Shown: positions 30,002 to 40,409 of the stretch, piece by piece
How positions within the stretch are numbered: the stretch's first letter is position 1
How the letters are laid out: the number at the start of each line of letters is the position of its first letter
Sequence record: NC_019725.1
DNA length: 50,552 nt
Source of the DNA: Escherichia phage ADB-2
Direction: 5' to 3' (one strand)
Notes under the pieces: model-generated
What the model was told of the DNA's origin: nothing
Seen by the model: the letters and a program-made list of their open reading frames with translations, nothing else
Databases searched by the model: none
Position numbers and translations under genes: made by a program

Positions 30002-33000
30002 ATGATTCAAAAAGTGATAAGCGGATCTAAAGGCGGGTCACAGAAGCCTCATAACCCAGTTGAGATGGAGGACAATCTAATCTCAATCAACAAAATCAAG
30101 ATCCTGTTAGCTGTATCTGATGGTGAAATTGACGAAACATTCAGCCTGAAGCAGTTGATGTTTAACTCAGTTCCGGTGCAAAACGAGGATGGATCGTTCA
30201 ACTTTGAAGGGGTAAAGGCTGAGTTCAGCCGGGTACGCAGACTCAGGAATATATCAAGGGAATGGAAGATAGCTCTAGTGAGGTAACTGTAAATCGTGAG
30301 GTTACTACCGATAACCCATACACGATCTCAGTAACCAACAAAACGCTGTCGGCAATCCGTATAAAAATGTTCATGCCTCGCGGCGTACGAATTGAAAGTA
30401 ACGGCGATAAAAACGGCGTTCGCGTTGAGTACGAGGTGCAACAAGCTGTTGATGGTGGCTCGTTTGAGACGGTGCTCACCGATGTAATCGAAGGCAAAAC
30501 AATGTCAGGTTACGATAGAAGCCGTCGCGTAAACCTTCCGAACTTCAACAATCAGGTAATATTCAGAGTTGTTCGAAAGACTCCTGACTCCAGTGACTCG
30601 AATGTCGTTGATGCAATTCAGGTGAAAAGCTATGCCGAGGTGATTGATGCCAAATTCCGTTATCCTCTGACTGGTCTTCTTTTTGTCGAGTTTGATTCGA
30701 AAATGTTCCCAAATCAGCTACCTACGATCTCAATTCGTAAGCGCTGGAAGATTGTAAACGTTCCATCAAACTACGATCCGGAATCGCGAACCTACAACGG
30801 CAATTGGATGGGACTTTCAAGAAGGCGTGGACTAACAACCCGGCATGGGTTCTATACGACCTGATGATTAATCAGCGATACGGGCTGGATCAGAAGGAGC
30901 TTGGAATCTCCGTCGATAAATGGGCGCTTTATGAGGCGGCGCAATATTGCGACCAGATGGTTCCCGACGGGAAAGGTGGTACGGAGCCTCGCTACCTTTG
31001 CGACGTGATAATTCAGTCACAGACTGATGCGTACAAGGTGATTCGAGATATTTGCTCAATCTTTCGAGGTATGAGCTTTTGGAATGGCGAAAGCATTTCG
31101 GTAATCATCGACAGGCCGCGTGAACCTGCGTACATCTTCACTAACGACAACGTTGTTAATGGTGACTTCTCATATACGTTCGCAAGCGAAAAGAGTATGT
31201 ACACGACGTGTAACGTGATGTTTGATGATGAACAAAACATGTATCAGCAGGACGTTGAGCCAGTATTCGATCGTGAGGCTACTCTACGGTTTGGTAACAA
31301 CGTAACGAGTATTACGGCGATCGGATGCACGCGTCGAAGCGAGGCTAACCGACGAGGACGATGGATTCTGAAAACCAACCTCCGCAGCACTACGGTAAAC
31401 TTCGCGACCGGGCTTGAGGGCATGATCCCGACAATAGGTGATGTTGTGGCAATAGCCGACAACTTCTGGTCAAGCAACTTAACTATGAACCTATCAGGGC
31501 GCTTGCTTGAAGTGTCTGGAAGCCAGATTTTCTTGCCGTTCCGTGTGGATGCGCGCGCAGGTGACTTTATTATCGTAAATAAGCCCGACGGCAAGCCCGT
31601 GAAGCGCACAATCTCAAGTGTTAGTGCGGATGGTAAGACTATAGAGGTTAACATTGGCTTTGGCTTTCCTGTGAAGCCTAACACGGTATTCGCTATCGAC
31701 CGCACCGACATTGCGCTACAACAGTACGTCGTGACAAAAATCGATAAGGGCGATGATGACGAGGAATTTACCTACAAAATCACGGCGGTGGAGTACGATC
31801 CTAACAAGTACGACGAGATTGATTACGGTGTGAACATCGACGACCGACCGACGAGTATCGTTGAACCAGACCAAATCCCTAGACCGGAAAACGTGCAAGT
31901 GTCATCTGAGTCACGAATCGTCCAGGGGATGAGCGTAGAGACGATGATTGTTAGCTGGGATAAAGTTCCGTACGCTGTTTTCTATGACGTGCAGTGGCGA
32001 AAAGATAACGGAAACTGGCAAAATGTACCTCAGACGGCAAACAAAGAGGTTTACGTTGAGGGTATTTACGCTGGCAACTATCAGGTTCGCGTGCGCTCCG
32101 TCGCTGGTTCGGGTACGACTTCGGGCTGGTCAAATATCGTCGCGGCAACGTTGACGGGTAAACAGGGTGAACCGGGACGACCGATTAACCTTACAGCTAC
32201 GGATGATGTTGTTTTTGGTATCCGTACAAAATGGGGGTTCTCTGATGGTTCTGGAGATACGGCATATACAGAGTTGCAACAGTCACCAGATGGAACAGTG
32301 GATAACGCAAGTTTGCTTTCTTTGATTCCATACCCGCAGCATGAGTATTATCACTCACCGATGCCGGGAGGGAATATTGTGTGGTATCGGGTAAGGACGG
32401 TTGACAGGATCGGTAACGTGTCTCAGTGGACTGATTTTGTCAGAGGCATGGCATCAACAAACGTTGACGATATCATTGGGGAGATTTCTGTCGATATCGA
32501 AAACTCGCCGGGTTACGAGTGGCTTGTTGATAACGCAACCGACAACGCGGCGCAGAACGCAGCGAACGCAGAGGCAGCAATTGAGAACGCACTAGCTAAT
32601 GACAAAGACGCGATCTACATGAAGAAGGAGAACGGAAAACGAAAAGCAGAGTACACCAAATCACTGCAACTAATTGCTGATGAGACTCAGGCGCGAGTAA
32701 CAGCAGTCGAGCAATTGAAGGCAAGTTTTGGAGATCAGATTAGCGCAAGCAACAGCGAATTGCGTGAAGTTATCGCAACTGAAACTGAGGCTTTATCGAG
32801 TGAGATTGATCAGCTTAAGGCTCAGATTGGTGACGATATTCAGGCGAGTTTGACCGATATCCGCAAGGCTATCGCAAATGAAACTGAGGCGAGAACGCAA
32901 GCCGACTTGGCGTTAAGTGCGAGGCTTGGGGATAATGAGGCGGCGCTTGCTCAAAAATTAGACTCTTGGAGCAATGCCAGTTCTACCGGGGCAATGTACG

Positions 33001-33419
33001 GCGTCAAGCTGGGTCTGAAATACAACGGGCAGGAATATAGCGCAGGCATGGCTATGTCTCTGATTGGTTCCGGCGCAGCTGTTAAGGCGCAAATTCTATT
33101 CGAGGCGTCACGATTTGCAATCATGACAGGGATGAACGGTCAGACTCAGTATCCTTTCGTTGTTGAAGGTAATCAGGTGATTCTTAATAGCGCCATCATT
33201 AAGAACGGATTCATCACGAATGCGATGATTGGTAATGTTATTCAATCGAATAACTATGTCGTTAACAAGGCTGGCTGGAGACTTGACAAGGGTGGAACAT
33301 TCGAAAACTACGGAAGTGACGGTGAGGGTGCAATGAAACAAACTAACACCACAATATCTGTTAGGGATGCGAATGGTCGCCTGAGGGTTCAGATTGGCAG
33401 GTTGACTGGCTCATGGTAA
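30002..33419 (+). CDS. central tail fibre / host specificity protein (lambda J-like), two frame disruptions (~30232 and ~30808)
   Basis: Three consecutive ORFs in frames each offset by -1; segments align colinearly to lambda gpJ (e.g. SRTYNGNW|DGTFKKAWTNNPAWVLYDLM vs lambda QYSGIWDGTFKPAYSNNMAWCLWDML; DKWALYEAAQYCDQMVPDGKGGTEPRY). Confidence 0.8.
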
Positions 33420-34455: not shown

Positions 34456-34480
34456 GCCCCTTTCGGGGCTTTTCTTTTAC
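34455..34480. terminator. terminator hairpin between convergent genes
   Basis: AGCCCC-TTTC-GGGGCT + TTTCTTTT. Confidence 0.65.
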
Positions 34481-34704
34481 ATCGAGCAATCGTGAGACTT
34501 GAAGTTATTCTCTGATACGTAATGGAATGAGAATGGATACCCAGCACGTAACAGCATCTCATCACCGCGCATCTTTGATCCAAAAACGGAAACCAAGTAC
34601 TCTGCGTCACCTGATTCATAAATCGCAGTACAAGTGCGCTCAGGCATCGATGAGCAACCAGTCAGGATGAATGCCGCAGCAATAATGGTGATTAATTTTT
34701 TCAT
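34477..34704 (-). CDS. small lipoprotein, candidate superinfection-exclusion protein (Cor/Llp-like)
   Basis: MKKLITIIAAAFILTGC... lipoprotein signal with lipobox LTGC; 75 aa; located directly after tail genes on opposite strand as in T1/phi80/T5. Confidence 0.6.
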   Translation of the reverse strand: MKKLITIIAAAFILTGCSSMPERTCTAIYESGDAEYLVSVFGSKMRGDEMLLRAGYPFSFHYVSENNFKSHDCSM

Positions 34705-34770
34705 TTGCACGTCCTCGTCGTTAGTGTGATTGCATTGTATGTCGCATTTACTTTTATTGCAATAGCGCAA

Positions 34771-36369: not shown

Positions 36370-37017
36370 ATGCAATTATCACCAGAAACAAACGAAATCC
36401 TTCCGGCTCTGTTCAACGCTCGCAACAAATTTGCTAAAGCAAAGAAGGATGCAAAAAACAATCACCTGAAAAATTCATACGCAACGCTTGATGCGATGAT
36501 GGCGGCAGTAAGCCCAGCGCTAACCGATAACGATATCATGATCCTGCAATCAATGCTGGATACAAGCACGGAAACGACCTTCCACCTTGAAACTATGCTG
36601 ATTCACAAATCCGGGCAGTGGGCCAAATTCTTCATGATGATGCCTATTGCAAAACGCGATCCGCAAGGCGTAGGATCTGCAATGACTTACGCTCGACGCT
36701 ACTCACTCGCTGCGGCGTTGGGGATTAGTCAGAGTGATGACGATGCTCAGCTTGCAGTGAAATCTGTAAAGGACTGGAAAAAAGAACTTGATGCGTGTGA
36801 AGACATCGAATCACTGAAAGATGTGTGGGCCAACGCTTACCGACAGACGGACACGGCGAGCAAGTCAATCATTCAGGATCACTACAACGCACTTAAGGCT
36901 AAGTTTGAGATCGGTAAAGCTCGTGGCATTCGCCCAGCGCAACCGGAACAGAAAAAACAGGTTGAAGCAACGAGCGCGAAGACTGTACAATCTCAATCAA
37001 TCACCAACTTCGAATAA
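36370..37017 (+). CDS. erf: ERF-family single-strand annealing protein
   Basis: GSAMTYARRYSLAAALGI hallmark of ERF superfamily; preceded by CCAATCAGGAGA leader. Confidence 0.75.
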   Translation: MQLSPETNEILPALFNARNKFAKAKKDAKNNHLKNSYATLDAMMAAVSPALTDNDIMILQSMLDTSTETTFHLETMLIHKSGQWAKFFMMMPIAKRDPQGVGSAMTYARRYSLAAALGISQSDDDAQLAVKSVKDWKKELDACEDIESLKDVWANAYRQTDTASKSIIQDHYNALKAKFEIGKARGIRPAQPEQKKQVEATSAKTVQSQSITNFE

Positions 37018-37062
37018 TCACCAGGCGACTTCGGTCGCCCATAAATTTTAGGAGAGAAAATC

Positions 37063-37479
37063 ATGCATATTATCACTGGCGAGATCAGAAAAGAACCTAA
37101 GATTCTGGAACGTAACGGCGGGAATACTTATATCATCGAACTGGCAGAAAGCTACAAGCCTCGTGATGGCGATCGCGAATACACAAACTATACATTCTTT
37201 TTTAGTGACGGTGGAAAGCCCGGACTTGCTGACTGGTATCGTGATGCATTCCAAGTTGGTAGAGTGATCTCAGTATCTTGCGAGACGTTGAAGATCTCAT
37301 CCCGCGAGCACAACGGAACGGTTTACAATTCATTGCAGGCTGCTGATTTTCCTAAGTTGGTATTCAGCCAACGAGGGCAAGGTAATCAACAACACCGAGC
37401 ACCTCAGCAACAACAAAGCGCCCAGCAACAGCCACAACCAAATCCTCAGTCAACTTTTGACGATGATATCCCATTCTGA
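37063..37479 (+). CDS. ssb: single-stranded DNA-binding protein
   Basis: 138 aa; Gln/Pro-rich linker and canonical C-terminal tip DDDIPF. Confidence 0.85.
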   Translation: MHIITGEIRKEPKILERNGGNTYIIELAESYKPRDGDREYTNYTFFFSDGGKPGLADWYRDAFQVGRVISVSCETLKISSREHNGTVYNSLQAADFPKLVFSQRGQGNQQHRAPQQQQSAQQQPQPNPQSTFDDDIPF

Positions 37480-37484
37480 CAACA

Positions 37485-37508
37485 AAAAGGGGCCAACTGG
37501 CCCCTTTC
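37485..37508. terminator. bidirectional terminator between convergent ssb and tail-fibre genes
   Basis: AGGGGCCAACTGGCCCCT hairpin; T-run on the minus strand side. Confidence 0.7.
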
Positions 37509-37510
37509 AT

Positions 37511-39373
37511 CTACCCTCTCAATTCTGAAATTATCTCCTTGAGTTCTTCAATTTCTGCCGCCATTCTCTTACATTCACGAATCGCATATTGTGCGCACCC
37601 CATCAAGTCCATCACGATAGGGTTAACGTCTACCGATGGACGGTCGCGCGTCTTACCCCCGACGATGGCGTTAGTCTCGGGGTCCACCTCCACATCGTAC
37701 GTCTCCTCACGGTGTTTGATGTATTGAGGTGCAATCTCTTCGGCCTCTTCGGCAATTATGCCGAAGCGGACGCGCTCCTGCACATCGTCCTTATATACGT
37801 AGTGCACCATGCGCATTTGTTCAATGCGTGCAACCGCTTCTGTAACGTCTGCATCGGAGATATCTTTCTTAAAGTCCCGCCCCGATGTGCCTTGCAAGGC
37901 AAGAACACCACCAGATGAAGGCCAATTGACCGTAAAGCCAGTGCCGTCGCCCTTCTCAAAATATTTATAGATGAGGTTACTATTGATGTTAACCGTATCC
38001 CACATCGTACGAAAGTTACCAGCCGGTACTGACTCTTTCCCGTTGTTTAGGACGAAAGACAACACTGAAGCTGTCGCTGTTGGGCGGACCGTGATATCTC
38101 GATGACAAACCAGGCCGCTCACCCCCGATCCAGAGATCTCCATAAAGGTATCGCGGTACGCGCCCGACGCGTCATATGCGTGCCACTTAAAATTACCCGC
38201 GGCGTCGTTAATCCCCATGCGCCAGCGTACTTTATCGGCGGAATCAGCCCAACATACGCCACCAAAGCCCGACCCGCTCTGCTTAAGGATTAATCCATCT
38301 TGGGAGTCTCCGTTAGATTTGAATTGGCGGAACTCGGCGACGTTATCGACGCGCCCGGTGCCACCTGATCCAATCGGCAGCGGAATAGCTTTTCCGCTGG
38401 CATTATCCCAAGCCCCCCAATCACTATTATCTTTTATGTAAATCCATTTTGATTTAGATTTTGTTTTTACCTGCGTCTCTCCGTTATTCTCAGATTGAAC
38501 AAACCTATCTACACCTAAATTCTCCACTGCCGCACCAATACTTGATAAGTCGCTTAGGTTGGCATTCTTCTTAAGAAGATTGGATGCATCAACGCTATTT
38601 GCTGCGTCTTTAGCTTCCTGTGCGCTGACTGCCGCTGCATCTTTTGCGCTAACCGCTGTATCACGCGCCGACTGTGCATCATTTTTTGCTGAGGTTGCAG
38701 TTTGCGCAGCCGTCTGAGCATTGTTAACGTAGACTGACAGATCGCCTTTTGCGTCATTGATTGCCTGAATTGCCGCCGCCTCTTCTGTGTCGATGTGCGC
38801 AACCGCCGCTGATTCTTTAGCGCCTACATCTGTGATAGCTTGGTCTTTTGCTGCATTGATGCTACCGACCGCTCCGTCAACAATTTGCTGTACCTGACCT
38901 TTAGTGGCATTAGCCTCGTCACGCGCTGCATTCGCTGAGTCGCGAGCAAGTTCAGCTTGATTCTGTGCAGATTCAGCGGCTGATTTGTTAGCCTTAATTT
39001 CTTCAACGATGCGGTTAAGGTTATCCATATCCAGGCTCGCAATGATATCCATTGCCCCTGCAATCTCAGTCTCTTTGCTTTGATAGTACCGAAGCGTCTC
39101 GGCAACGTTTTGAGCCAATCCGTTAACAGTCAGTGAATCGTTAAGCAAGATCACATACTTTCCGTCAGCGGCAGTCTGACCATCAGTAGAGATAGCCTTT
39201 AACTCTGTGTCGCTCACGATGTCGCTGATTACCGCCAGCTTAATCGGTTGCTCTAGGAATACGATAGTTGCACCGACTCTAATCAGAGCAAGCTGATCTT
39301 TCCATTTTGTGTCGGTTCCGTGAACCGTTCCGTCTGCATCCATTGATGCTGTGCCGCGTCTATATAAAGCCAT
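37511..39373 (-). CDS. tail fibre protein with C-terminal intramolecular-chaperone (peptidase S74-like) domain
   Basis: 620 aa; Ala/Asp/Gln-rich repetitive shaft; C-terminal ...RFGIIAEEAEEIAPQYI... resembles the self-cleaving chaperone domains of T5 L-shaped fibre/endosialidases; AAGGAG RBS. Confidence 0.7.
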   Translation of the reverse strand: MALYRRGTASMDADGTVHGTDTKWKDQLALIRVGATIVFLEQPIKLAVISDIVSDTELKAISTDGQTAADGKYVILLNDSLTVNGLAQNVAETLRYYQSKETEIAGAMDIIASLDMDNLNRIVEEIKANKSAAESAQNQAELARDSANAARDEANATKGQVQQIVDGAVGSINAAKDQAITDVGAKESAAVAHIDTEEAAAIQAINDAKGDLSVYVNNAQTAAQTATSAKNDAQSARDTAVSAKDAAAVSAQEAKDAANSVDASNLLKKNANLSDLSSIGAAVENLGVDRFVQSENNGETQVKTKSKSKWIYIKDNSDWGAWDNASGKAIPLPIGSGGTGRVDNVAEFRQFKSNGDSQDGLILKQSGSGFGGVCWADSADKVRWRMGINDAAGNFKWHAYDASGAYRDTFMEISGSGVSGLVCHRDITVRPTATASVLSFVLNNGKESVPAGNFRTMWDTVNINSNLIYKYFEKGDGTGFTVNWPSSGGVLALQGTSGRDFKKDISDADVTEAVARIEQMRMVHYVYKDDVQERVRFGIIAEEAEEIAPQYIKHREETYDVEVDPETNAIVGGKTRDRPSVDVNPIVMDLMGCAQYAIRECKRMAAEIEELKEIISELRG

Positions 39374-39392
39374 AGTATAAACTCCTTAAGTA

Positions 39393-39412
39393 AATAGCAC
39401 GAATTGCTAAGC
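39393..39412 (+). promoter_or_regulatory. conserved intergenic element (copy 18, plus-oriented between minus-strand genes)
   Basis: AAATAGCACGAATTGCTAAGC. Confidence 0.5.
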
Positions 39413-39452
39413 ATAGATTTTATCATTGTGATACACGCCTTGCAATGGGCAA

Positions 39453-39474
39453 TAAAAAACCGCCCGAAGGCGGT
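39453..39474 (-). terminator. rho-independent terminator after primase gene
   Basis: minus strand reads ACCGCCTTCGGGCGGT + TTTTTTATT. Confidence 0.75.
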
Positions 39475-40409
39475 TAGAGTAGGTCACTTGCTGAGAATAA
39501 CTTGGATTGCATTCCTGAGCGGTATCCTCCAGGGTTCGGGATTATTATTTTTAATTGTCGGTCGTCTGCCATGTATAAAGTCTCCTTGTCCGAAGGTTCG
39601 CACGCCACTCTTACTTCTCGATCACCTTTATACCTGTACGCAACCATTTCTAAGTTTTCAGGAGTGAAGCAGGCCCATACCTCTTGCTTTGTGTGAAATG
39701 CAATATGCTGAGCATCAATCCAATTAAGGCATAAGTAGATCGCCTTCTCAGTTTTACCAGTCACGGCAACCGAGCAACTCGTATATTTCTTCGCGTAAAA
39801 TGATTCTCTTCCTTCCTCATCAATAATCAAAATATTGCAAAACTCATCATCAAGCCCGTCCTCATGCACAAGTTGACACGGAATGGTGTGAAACACGCTC
39901 TCCCCGCCATCTTCTCGACGTTTTACGCCAACGTCGAATGATTCAGTGGGTAGTGACTCAAAAATACTTAGGGGTGTGTTTACGCGCTTCTCTGTACGCT
40001 CCATAACTTTCATTACCGCCTCATGATCTGCCATCATGACATTGACACCTGATACCGGAGTTCGGCGCGCTTTCTTGTTTGCCTTGACAATGTATTCCTG
40101 CGGAACCTTGCCGAGAAATCTACCCAGGATATTTATGCATTCGCTATACGGCATACCAGTTAATTTCATCAACCAACCTATCCCGGAGTCGTTACCGCAT
40201 GAGTTGCAGATCGCGCCGCCGTCGCCTGGAGTGTTAAGATTGTCAGTCCAGCGAAAGCGGTCCTTACCTCCGCAGTTAGGGCAGGGCTGGTGTTTCTTGT
40301 TGAATACCTCGTTCGGCAACCCGCAGACTGACTGAAAAGCATCGCGCCATAAACCTTTCATGTACGGCAAAACATCCTCTTTCTGAAACATCATAAATTC
40401 TTCGTTCAC
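39474..40409 (-). CDS. DNA primase (zinc-ribbon + Toprim-type)
   Basis: 311 aa; CPNCGGKDRFRW...CNSCGN zinc-binding motif typical of phage primases; GGAGA RBS before GTG start. Confidence 0.65.
   Translation of the reverse strand: MNEEFMMFQKEDVLPYMKGLWRDAFQSVCGLPNEVFNKKHQPCPNCGGKDRFRWTDNLNTPGDGGAICNSCGNDSGIGWLMKLTGMPYSECINILGRFLGKVPQEYIVKANKKARRTPVSGVNVMMADHEAVMKVMERTEKRVNTPLSIFESLPTESFDVGVKRREDGGESVFHTIPCQLVHEDGLDDEFCNILIIDEEGRESFYAKKYTSCSVAVTGKTEKAIYLCLNWIDAQHIAFHTKQEVWACFTPENLEMVAYRYKGDREVRVACEPSDKETLYMADDRQLKIIIPNPGGYRSGMQSKLFSASDLL

What the first reader, a model, noticed from the sequence alone, without database searches (positions are those of the whole stretch)
37511..39373. Tail fibre gene with a self-cleaving chaperone-like C-terminus, on the opposite strand inside the replication/recombination block
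The 620-aa product has a repetitive Ala/Asp/Gln-rich shaft and a C-terminal ~120 aa resembling the intramolecular chaperone (peptidase S74-like) domains that are auto-cleaved from T5-type fibres and endosialidases. The gene is separated from the main tail block by roughly 4 kb and is on the opposite strand, flanked by bidirectional terminators, consistent with a mobile host-range cassette.
Basis: partly seen in the sequence, partly recalled or inferred. Interest (0 to 1): 0.45.

Follow-up and report, generated by a model that had tools for sequence, protein, structure and literature searches.

The report
T1-type lateral tail fibre gene
This is the ordinary side tail fibre gene of a T1-like coliphage, sitting where T1 itself keeps it; its outer half, including a self-removing folding domain, has been swapped with unrelated phages, which is a well-known pattern.

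Summary
Window 37511-39373 (- strand) is an intact 620-aa ORF for a tail fibre whose last 124 residues are a Peptidase_S74 intramolecular chaperone domain. The evidence is a Pfam match of 43.5 bits against a cut-off of 22, an invariant Thr496|Ser497...Lys502 motif, and a confident model that matches the solved chaperone domains of MyRF, endosialidase NF and GA-1 gp12.

The window is a Tunavirus (T1-like, Drexlerviridae) genome. T1 has its fibre gene ST26 in the same place: minus strand, between the SSB-like gene and the primase, with the same convergent terminator. The odd location is therefore ancestral and not a sign of a mobile gene.

What moves is the distal part of the gene.
- Gene nt 1-~770 are Tunavirus-type (about 84% nt identity to T1).
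- Gene nt 925-1829 are 88.5% identical to the fibre of the Dhillonvirus Oekolampad.
- Gene nt 1108-1778 are 86% identical to ltfB of the T5-like phage DT57C, whose receptor has been attributed to O81-type O-antigen.
- T1's own distal end is a different domain (PF25670) with no S74.

The variability of this locus in Drexlerviridae is already published (Maffei 2021), and S74-tipped fibres are well characterised (T5 pb1). This is a new allele of a known kind and of low interest.

The parts
37511..39373 (-). Lateral tail fibre gene (620 aa plus stop), orthologous in position to T1 ST26
   Evidence: ORF list and translation; PHROG tail fibre E=4e-84; same position and strand as T1 ST26, CLB_P3 and Chapo fibre genes
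39044..39373 (-). aa 1-110: N-terminal virion-attachment (anchor) domain, conserved across Drexlerviridae
   Evidence: 98% identical to T1 ST26; tblastn finds it in 846 phage records, including Klebsiella Webervirus depolymerases; aligns to the N-terminus of solved depolymerases 7LZJ/7VYV, E~1e-44
38549..39043 (-). aa 111-275: Ala-rich alpha-helical coiled-coil shaft
   Evidence: 26% Ala; repeat offsets 7/11/14/25; hydrophobic period ~3.6; 80% identical to T1 and 91% to CLB_P3 over aa 111-257
38384..38548 (-). aa 276-330: linker with motifs shared by all fibre types (NLLxK..NLS, DWG); the following GGTG motif at aa 337-340 falls in the next part. This is the zone where similarity to T1 ends and similarity to Dhillonvirus fibres begins
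   Evidence: Sliding-window nt identity; segment identities; 4-way protein alignment
37886..38383 (-). aa 331-496: distal tip, the presumed glycan (O-antigen) binding domain; ends at Thr496, the predicted new C-terminus after processing
   Evidence: 89% aa identity to Oekolampad lateral tail fibre, 70% to CLB_P3, 64% to DT57C LtfB, 19% to T1; LtfB receptor attributed to O81-type O-antigen (PMC4728585); AF2 monomer model is low-confidence here
37514..37885 (-). aa 497-620: Peptidase_S74 intramolecular chaperone domain. Catalytic Ser497 is at 37883-37885 and Lys502 at 37868-37870
   Evidence: Pfam PF13884 E=3.8e-11; S497 and K502 invariant in 47 homologues; pLDDT >90; Foldseek top hits 7DC3, 3GW6, 3GUD; 8HQZ LtfA E=1.5e-45
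37486..37507 (.). GC-rich hairpin between the convergent SSB-like and fibre genes: shared intrinsic terminator, strong on the - strand and weaker on the + strand
   Evidence: Sequence; folds at -16.6 and -17.7 kcal/mol, z -4.9 and -3.5; T1 annotates paired terminators at the same place. Stem GGGGCC/GGCCCC is shared with CLB_P3 and Oekolampad but differs in T1 and Chapo
39458..39475 (-). Intrinsic terminator after the primase gene (hairpin plus TTTTTT on the - strand only)
   Evidence: Terminator scan; fold -11.8 kcal/mol; invariant in T1, CLB_P3 and Chapo; annotated as terminator in Chapo
39417..39445 (-). Sigma-70-like promoter for the fibre gene: TTGCAA, 17 nt spacer, TGaTAAAAT
   Evidence: Promoter scan, 9/12 with TG; both hexamers invariant in four Tunaviruses; a promoter is annotated at the same place in Chapo. 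Function is inferred, not shown
39382..39387 (-). Ribosome-binding site AAGGAG, 8 nt upstream of the ATG
   Evidence: Read directly from the sequence; invariant in four phages

Best explanation
The gene encodes the lateral (side) tail fibre of a T1-like siphovirus and sits in the position that is standard for the family.

**Expression.** The gene is its own small transcription unit on the minus strand: terminator after primase, promoter, RBS, gene, then a terminator shared with the convergent SSB-like gene.

**Modular protein.**
- aa 1-110 attach the trimer to the tail tip.
- aa 111-275 form an Ala-rich coiled-coil shaft.
- aa 276-330 are a linker.
- aa 331-496 form the distal tip, which most likely binds an O-antigen-type surface glycan as a reversible primary receptor.
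- aa 497-620 are an S74 intramolecular chaperone.

**Inferred mechanism (by analogy).** As in T5 pb1 and endosialidase NF, the three chaperone domains nucleate trimerisation and folding of the tip. Once the tip is correctly folded, Ser497, activated by Lys502, cleaves the Thr496-Ser497 bond. The 124-aa chaperone leaves, exposes the binding site, and the mature virion protein is 496 aa.

**Evolution.** The proximal third of the gene is vertically inherited Tunavirus sequence. The tip plus chaperone is a horizontally exchanged module shared at 86-88% nucleotide identity with Dhillonvirus fibres and with LtfB of T5-like phages.

**Shown here:** gene, domain identities, catalytic motif, fold, synteny, mosaic boundaries.

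**Inferred:** cleavage, chaperone role, glycan receptor, promoter and terminator function.
For: **Identity.** PHROG tail fibre and Pfam S74 matches.

**Catalytic motif.** T496-S497-G-R-D-F-K502 has the Thr|Ser...Lys(+5) spacing of T5 pb1 Thr1263|Ser1264...Lys1269 (PMC4690869). It is invariant in 47 homologues.

**Fold.**
- The AF2 model has pLDDT >90 for aa ~500-620. It shows short helices, a long beta-hairpin (aa 552-581) and a C-terminal helix (aa 583-619).
- Foldseek top hits are only intramolecular chaperone structures: 7DC3, 3GW6 and 3GUD.

**Synteny.** The arrangement is the same in T1, CLB_P3 and Chapo, and regulatory signals are conserved.

**Mosaic.**
- Gene nt 1-803 are 84% identical to T1; nt 925-1829 are 88.5% identical to Oekolampad; nt 1108-1778 are 86% identical to DT57C ltfB. 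Sliding windows and segment identities agree.
- These are the only strong nucleotide matches between the whole window and the 11-13 kb Oekolampad and DT57C loci.
- T1's distal end is PF25670, without S74.

**Receptor analogy.**
- The LtfB receptor is attributed to O81-type O-antigen, and the DT57C/DT571/2 fibres showed no O-antigen hydrolase activity in tests with E. coli 4s (O22-like) and HS1/2 LPS (PMC4728585).
- Drexlerviridae lateral fibres have been proposed to bind O-antigen (PMC8594841).
- Webervirus (Drexlerviridae) RBPs with an ICA domain run as a smaller product on SDS-PAGE (PMC13463945).
Against: - Cleavage is not demonstrated for this protein, nor for its closest relatives: it is predicted, not shown, for DT57C LtfA/LtfB.
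- The tip domain model is low-confidence because a monomer was modelled for a trimeric protein, so the binding fold is not established.
- The tip is only 64% identical to LtfB, so O81 specificity cannot be transferred.
- The upstream 'sensor' Arg and Asp used in T5 pb1 catalysis could not be mapped with confidence. The window has Lys or Tyr where most homologues have Arg-Arg.
- Laboratory T1 is reported fibreless in cryo-EM (PMC11945409), so the fibre may be dispensable on rough hosts.
Confidence: 0.88

Rival explanations
1. The whole gene is a mobile host-range cassette that inserted, in reverse orientation and bounded by its own terminators, into the replication/recombination block.
For: The gene is on the opposite strand, about 4 kb from the tail block, with hairpins on both sides. 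The 3' hairpin stem (GGGGCC) matches the one downstream of the Oekolampad fibre gene and differs from the T1/Chapo hairpin.
Against: - Position, orientation and both intergenic regions are conserved in T1, CLB_P3 and Chapo.
- The 5' ~770 nt of the gene are 84-95% identical to T1.
- The N-terminal anchor is family-wide, in 846 records.
- Primase and the regulator upstream are on the same minus strand, so this is a minus-strand block and not a lone inverted gene.
- The locus is published as conserved-flank, variable-interior.
Confidence: 0.05
2. The S74 domain is a relic that no longer cleaves and stays on the mature fibre as a structural cap.
For: There are no experimental data for this protein. 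The sensor Arg of T5 pb1 was not mapped.
Against: - Ser497, Lys502 and the QGTSG context are invariant.
- The domain is 94-97% identical over aa 497-585 to those of Oekolampad and LtfB, i.e. under strong constraint.
- In T5 the retained chaperone blocks receptor binding, so retention would be costly.
Confidence: 0.05
3. The protein is an enzymatic tailspike or depolymerase rather than a passive fibre.
For: The N-terminal 168 aa align to solved Klebsiella phage depolymerases. S74 domains were first described on endosialidases.
Against: - No catalytic domain was detected by Pfam, NCBIfam or PHROG.
- Only ~166 aa lie between linker and cleavage site, too short for a beta-helix or beta-propeller enzyme.
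- The depolymerase match is confined to the shared anchor.
- DT57C/DT571/2 fibres show no O-antigen hydrolase activity.
Confidence: 0.03

Closest known systems
Phage T1 tail fibre ST26 (YP_003919) and the Drexlerviridae lateral tail fibre locus (Maffei et al. 2021, PMC8594841)
   Same: Same genomic position, strand, promoter/RBS and convergent terminator. aa 1-110 are 98% identical and aa 111-257 are 80% identical.
   Different: From about aa 258 onward the two are unrelated. T1 carries a PF25670 'Phage_tail_C_2' end and no S74; the window carries a different tip plus an S74 chaperone.
Escherichia phage CLB_P3 tail fibre (UNI73318, Tunavirus)
   Same: Same 620-aa length, gapless alignment, 86% aa identity overall, and the same S74 motif at the same residue numbers.
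   Different: The tip (aa 331-496) is only 70% identical and nucleotide identity falls to 61-80% across gene nt ~1000-1750, whereas both ends are 93-97% identical. The window's interior is closer to Dhillonvirus alleles.
Dhillonvirus lateral tail fibre (Oekolampad Bas18 QXV82993; also EE09, SO-1, SECphi18)
   Same: The distal module is 88.5% nt identical over 905 nt. The tip is 89% aa identical and the chaperone (aa 497-585) 97%.
   Different: The N-terminal anchor and shaft are unrelated (22-25%), the genus is different, and the fibre lies on the + strand directly after the J-like/RBP genes.
LtfB of T5-like phages DT57C and DT571/2 (receptor attributed to O81-type O-antigen; PMC4728585)
   Same: 79% aa identity over aa 361-612, 86% nt identity over 672 nt, and the same cleavage motif QGTSGRDFKK.
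   Different: LtfB is 788 aa and attaches to LtfA as a branch, not to the tail. Its N-terminal 530 aa are unrelated, and part of the tip (gene nt ~1216-1305) is only ~65% identical.
T5 pb1 L-shaped tail fibre and endosialidase NF intramolecular chaperones (PDB 4UW8, 3GW6; MEROPS S74)
   Same: C-terminal, trimer-dependent, Ser-Lys autocleaving chaperone. The scissile context is the same as in T5 (Thr|Ser, Lys at +5), and there is a fold match to 3GW6 and 3GUD.
   Different: Sequence similarity to T5 pb1 itself is too low for phmmer to report. The passenger domains are different: the T5 'bullet' domain, and the sialidase beta-propeller.

Membership tests
Peptidase S74 / intramolecular chaperone autoprocessing domain (Pfam PF13884) | Match to the family profile above the curated threshold | tested here: met
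   43.5 bits against gathering score 22, E=3.8e-11, aa 498-551 on profile positions 2-56 of 58
Peptidase S74 / intramolecular chaperone autoprocessing domain (Pfam PF13884) | Catalytic Ser at the domain start with Lys five residues downstream | tested here: met
   Ser497 and Lys502 (SGRDFK). Both are invariant in a 47-sequence alignment. Thr496|Ser497 mirrors T5 pb1 Thr1263|Ser1264...Lys1269. The MyRF alignment places its lysine on Lys502.
Peptidase S74 / intramolecular chaperone autoprocessing domain (Pfam PF13884) | Fold: alpha/beta body, long beta-hairpin 'tentacle', C-terminal helix for a trimeric coiled coil | tested here: met
   AF2 pLDDT 90-98 for aa ~500-620 with these elements. Foldseek hits 7DC3 (E=3e-5), 3GW6 and 3GUD have probability 0.99-1.00, and nothing unrelated scores below E~0.4. 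The model is a monomer, so trimer geometry was not tested.
Peptidase S74 / intramolecular chaperone autoprocessing domain (Pfam PF13884) | Folding-sensor residues from the passenger domain (Arg of a neighbouring chain, Asp) completing the active site | tested here: inconclusive
   No invariant Arg or Asp upstream of the motif in alignment A1. Most homologues have Arg-Arg about 25 residues upstream where the window has Tyr-Lys. A trimer structure is needed.
Peptidase S74 / intramolecular chaperone autoprocessing domain (Pfam PF13884) | Actual autocleavage and release of the C-terminal fragment after trimer folding | not testable with these tools
   Needs expression plus SDS-PAGE or MS. Shown for T5 pb1 and suggested for Webervirus ICA-type RBPs, but only predicted for DT57C LtfA/B.
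Drexlerviridae (T1-type) lateral tail fibre | Conserved N-terminal anchor domain | tested here: met
   aa 1-110 are 98% identical to T1 ST26 and found in 846 phage records, all covering at least 80% of the query
Drexlerviridae (T1-type) lateral tail fibre | Locus between the recombination genes (exonuclease, Erf, SSB-like) and primase, transcribed opposite to the structural genes | tested here: met
   Neighbour domains; identical order in T1, CLB_P3 and Chapo; described in PMC8594841 S1C Fig
Drexlerviridae (T1-type) lateral tail fibre | Present on the virion as a lateral fibre that binds a surface glycan | not testable with these tools
   According to PMC8594841 this has never been directly demonstrated for Drexlerviridae. 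Laboratory T1 shows no fibre density.
T5-type L-shaped tail fibre (pb1 / LtfA) | N-terminal region homologous to pb1/LtfA that docks on the LtfC collar | tested here: not met
   Similarity to DT57C LtfA is confined to aa 466-612 (57%). aa 1-465 have no BLASTP hit and score 19-31% in a forced alignment. The window has no LtfC-like gene next to the fibre.
Endosialidase / tailspike depolymerase | Catalytic glycosidase or lyase domain between anchor and chaperone | tested here: not met
   No such Pfam, PHROG or NCBIfam match. The depolymerase PDB hits cover only aa 1-168.

The most novel reading that the evidence does not exclude
The gene may record a very fine-grained, recent inter-family gene conversion. 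On a CLB_P3-like Tunavirus backbone that is 93-97% identical at both ends of the gene, only the interior (gene nt ~990-1750, i.e. tip plus the first two-thirds of the chaperone) is replaced by a Dhillonvirus/T5-like allele. One breakpoint lies inside the S74 domain. If so, the conserved linker motifs and the conserved chaperone-coding sequence act as the two homology arms that let receptor-binding tips hop between Drexlerviridae, Dhillonvirus and Demerecviridae. Tip and chaperone would then not need to travel as one co-adapted unit. The allele may also give a T1-like phage access to hosts carrying an O81-like O-antigen.
Probability: 0.4. Interest if true: 0.3.

Novelty: new member of a known kind. 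Interest (0 to 1): 0.15.

Why it matters
There is little of general significance here. The result corrects an over-reading: in T1-like phages the opposite-strand fibre gene inside the replication block is the family norm, not evidence of mobility.

Practical value:
- It gives exact module boundaries and a predicted processing site (Thr496|Ser497), useful for engineering or host-range prediction of T1-like phages.
- It is one more clear example of a tip-plus-chaperone module shared at about 86-88% nucleotide identity among three siphovirus lineages. That supports using the linker and the S74 domain as natural splice points for fibre swapping.

Tried and rejected
- **Whole-gene cassette:** rejected, because flanks, regulatory signals and the 5' third of the gene are conserved and syntenic.
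- **Membership in the T5 pb1/LtfA family:** rejected, because only the distal end is shared.
- **Depolymerase reading from the 7LZJ/7VYV hits:** rejected, because the match is the shared anchor only.
- **NCBIfam hit to AdcR/MarR (19.7 bits against cut-off 175) and PDB hits 5JLS/5JLU:** chance matches to the helical part of the chaperone.
- **Antisense ORFs within the gene (up to 109 aa):** no family matches.
- **Terminator scan:** it missed the 37486-37507 hairpin, which was recovered by reading and folding the sequence.
- **The search for homologous proteins on aa 341-620:** it returned only distant relatives (at most 66% identity, mostly over the chaperone half; the best full-coverage hit was 39%). 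This was useful for conservation analysis but not for close context. Close relatives came from the phage collection.
- **AF2 model of the tip (aa 341-495):** low confidence (pLDDT 40-60), so no fold assignment for the receptor-binding part was attempted.
- **Terminator hairpin homology:** similarity of the hairpin to Oekolampad's is too short to call homology with confidence.
Full report
**What is there**

The interval 37511-39373 holds one long minus-strand ORF: ATG start, 620 codons, no internal stop. Base skews are negative across about 37-41 kb, which fits a short minus-strand block in an otherwise plus-strand genome. Five antisense ORFs in and beside the interval match no phage protein family. 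The product matches PHROG 1980 'tail fiber protein' at E=4e-84. In Pfam it matches a single domain, Peptidase_S74 (PF13884, 'chaperone of endosialidase'), at aa 498-551 with 43.5 bits against a gathering score of 22.

**What genome this is**

The window is a T1-like siphovirus genome (Tunavirus, Drexlerviridae).
- Megablast of the first 25 kb finds Shigella and Escherichia Tunaviruses at 88-92% identity over 90-97% of the query.
- T1 proteins map onto the window at 91-100% amino-acid identity.
- The neighbours of the fibre gene are a J-like central fibre (ends at 33419), two N15-like membrane proteins, an exonuclease, an Erf recombinase and an SSB-like protein ending in DDDIPF on the plus strand.
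- Primase and a Cro-like regulator lie on the minus strand, followed by the helicase on the plus strand.

**The position is ancestral**

T1 has its tail fibre gene ST26 in exactly this place. It is on the minus strand, between ST27 (SSB-like) and ST24 (primase), with a pair of annotated terminators between the convergent ST27 and ST26. CLB_P3 and Chapo have the same arrangement.

The 100-nt spacer between primase and fibre gene is 95% conserved among the window, T1, CLB_P3 and Chapo. Four elements in it are invariant in all four phages:
- the terminator hairpin after primase (window 39458-39475);
- a TTGCAA -35 box;
- an extended -10 box TGaTAAAAT (window 39417-39445 for the whole promoter-like site);
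- the AAGGAG ribosome-binding site.

Chapo's depositors annotated a terminator and a promoter at the same spots. Maffei et al. 2021 describe this layout for the whole family: conserved, syntenic flanks encoding recombination and primase/helicase functions, with only the far 5' end of the fibre gene conserved (PMC8594841). The 'odd' location is the family norm.

**Terminators**
- The 3' hairpin (37486-37507; stem AAAGGGGCC/GGCCCCTTT) folds at -16.6 kcal/mol on the + strand and -17.7 on the - strand. It has a good U-run for the fibre transcript and a shorter one for the SSB-like transcript. It is reasonably called bidirectional.
- The 5' hairpin has a U-run only on the minus strand. It ends the primase transcript and is not bidirectional.

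**Protein anatomy**

| Residues | Module | Evidence |
|---|---|---|
| 1-110 | Virion anchor | 98% identical to T1; present in 846 phage records, including Klebsiella Webervirus depolymerases; aligns to the N-termini of solved depolymerases 7LZJ/7VYV |
| 111-275 | Ala-rich coiled-coil shaft | 26% Ala, with Asp, Asn and Ser next and only 6.7% Gln; repeat offsets 7, 11, 14, 25; hydrophobic period ~3.6 |
| 276-330 | Linker | Motifs shared by all compared fibres (NLLxK..NLS, DWG), followed by GGTG at aa 337-340 |
| 331-496 | Distal tip | See mosaic section; fold not established |
| 497-620 | S74 chaperone | See next section |

**The chaperone domain**
- The motif Thr496-Ser497-Gly-Arg-Asp-Phe-Lys502 has the same scissile context and Ser-to-Lys spacing as T5 pb1 (Thr1263|Ser1264, Lys1269). 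In pb1 the S1264A mutant stays uncleaved, and the retained chaperone prevents competition for the receptor (PMC4690869).
- In an alignment of the window protein with 46 database homologues (31-45% identity overall), Gly495, Thr496, Ser497, Gly498 and Lys502 are invariant.
- An AlphaFold2 model of aa 341-620 has pLDDT 90-98 for aa ~500-620. It shows two short helices, a long beta-hairpin (aa 552-581) and a 37-residue C-terminal helix.
- Its Foldseek hits in the PDB with high probability are only intramolecular chaperone structures: the MyRF ICA domain 7DC3, endosialidase NF 3GW6 and GA-1 gp12 3GUD.
- By sequence, the last 140 aa match the C-terminus of DT57C LtfA (PDB 8HQZ) at E=1.5e-45.
- I could not map the folding-sensor Arg/Asp of T5, and cleavage itself cannot be tested here.

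**Mosaic structure**

Pairwise BLAST and sliding-window identity give a clear pattern.

| Compared with | Region of the window gene | Identity |
|---|---|---|
| T1 ST26 | nt 1-~770 | 75-95% per window (84% overall), then background |
| Oekolampad (Dhillonvirus) fibre | up to nt ~900 | background |
| Oekolampad fibre | nt 925-1829 | 88.5% (80-96% per window), falling to 72% in the last ~100 nt |
| DT57C ltfB | nt 1108-1778 | 86%, with a dip to ~65% at nt ~1216-1305 |
| CLB_P3 (Tunavirus) | nt 1-~1000 | 84-97% |
| CLB_P3 | nt ~1000-1750 | 61-80% |
| CLB_P3 | last ~100 nt | 93% |

- In amino acids, the tip (331-496) is 89% identical to Oekolampad, 70% to CLB_P3, 64% to LtfB and 19% to T1. The chaperone (497-585) is 97%, 83%, 94% and 20% identical, respectively.
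- Across the whole window, the fibre segment is the only strong nucleotide match to the 11-kb Oekolampad locus and the 13-kb DT57C locus.
- T1's own distal end is a different domain (PF25670) without S74.
- Of 80 records matched by megablast with the region 37000-40000, only the two CLB_P3 records cover the whole gene. The listed Tunavirus relatives cover only the flanks plus the 5' part of the gene.

The exchanged unit is therefore the distal two-thirds of the gene, with its left boundary in the linker and its right boundary near or inside the end of the chaperone-coding sequence. The terminator hairpin stem is of the GGGGCC type in the window, CLB_P3 and Oekolampad, and of a different type in T1 and Chapo. 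This hints that the hairpin may travel with the module, but the stretch is too short to be sure.

**Likely function**

By analogy, the fibre is a reversible glycan-binding adhesin.
- T5 pb1 binds polymannose O-antigen, and the chaperone masks the binding site until it is cleaved.
- DT57C and DT571/2 LtfA and LtfB bind O22-like, O87 and (attributed) O81 O-antigens. The fibres showed no hydrolase activity on 4s and HS1/2 LPS.
- Lateral fibres of Drexlerviridae are proposed, though never directly shown, to work the same way.
- Webervirus RBPs with an ICA domain run as a smaller product on gels.

With 64% tip identity to LtfB, the receptor type cannot be assigned.

**Comparison and novelty**

Every element is known: the locus (T1; Maffei 2021), the S74 chaperone on siphovirus fibres (T5 pb1; predicted for DT57C LtfA/B), ICA-tipped RBPs in Drexlerviridae (Webervirus), and mosaic exchange of fibre tips. 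CLB_P3 already has the same architecture at the same length. The window's allele is new only as a sequence variant: 86% aa identity to CLB_P3, with an interior closer to Dhillonvirus alleles.

I file it as a member of the Drexlerviridae lateral tail fibre family carrying an S74 domain. It is not a member of the T5 pb1/LtfA family, because the N-terminal docking region is not shared, and it is not a depolymerase, because it has no catalytic domain.

**Verdict**

This is an ordinary finding. Interest 0.15.

Noticed in passing
window ~16108, 22186, 23590, 27940, 30228, 30805, 41382: Relative to T1, the window has seven single-base deletions. Six break essential genes: portal, major tail protein ST41, hub ST36, J-like central fibre (twice) and helicase ST22. 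One fuses ST44 with ST43. The encoded proteins are otherwise 93-100% identical to T1, and all the deletions sit next to short G/C runs. The most likely cause is indel errors in the source sequence rather than biology. The fibre gene itself is intact.
   Followed up: partly
window ~32776 (J-like central fibre gene, 30002-33419): There is a clean 99-nt in-frame deletion relative to T1 ST33. T1's context shows a near-repeat (GGTTATCGCAACCGAGACT at both ends), so this looks like a copy-number difference of a 33-aa repeat in the distal central fibre.
   Followed up: no
window 37063-37479 (+): The 138-aa protein upstream of the shared terminator is annotated 'hypothetical' in T1 (ST27). It ends in DDDIPF, the canonical SSB C-terminal tip, and matches PHROG 44 (SSB) at E=3e-23. 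Only its C-terminal part matches TIGR00621, and below cut-off. It appears to be a divergent or short SSB.
   Followed up: partly
window 37486-37507; L002 5966-5990; L001 6486-6518: The terminator hairpin downstream of the fibre gene co-varies with the fibre's distal type. The stem is GGGGCC/GGCCCC in the window, CLB_P3 and the Dhillonvirus Oekolampad, and GCCCCGC/GCGGGGC in T1 and Chapo. The terminator may be part of the exchanged module, or the resemblance may be coincidence in a short GC stem.
   Followed up: partly
window 39283-39426 (-), equivalent of T1 ST25: T1 annotates a 47-aa ORF (ST25) that starts 53 nt upstream of the fibre ATG and overlaps the fibre gene's 5' end. In the window that stretch contains the conserved promoter and RBS, so ST25 is probably not a real gene. 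I did not test this further.
   Followed up: no
window 34477-34770 (-): A 97-aa minus-strand ORF lies at the position of T1 ST30, the Cor superinfection exclusion protein, between the N15 gp23-like membrane protein gene and the exonuclease gene. I did not examine it.
   Followed up: no
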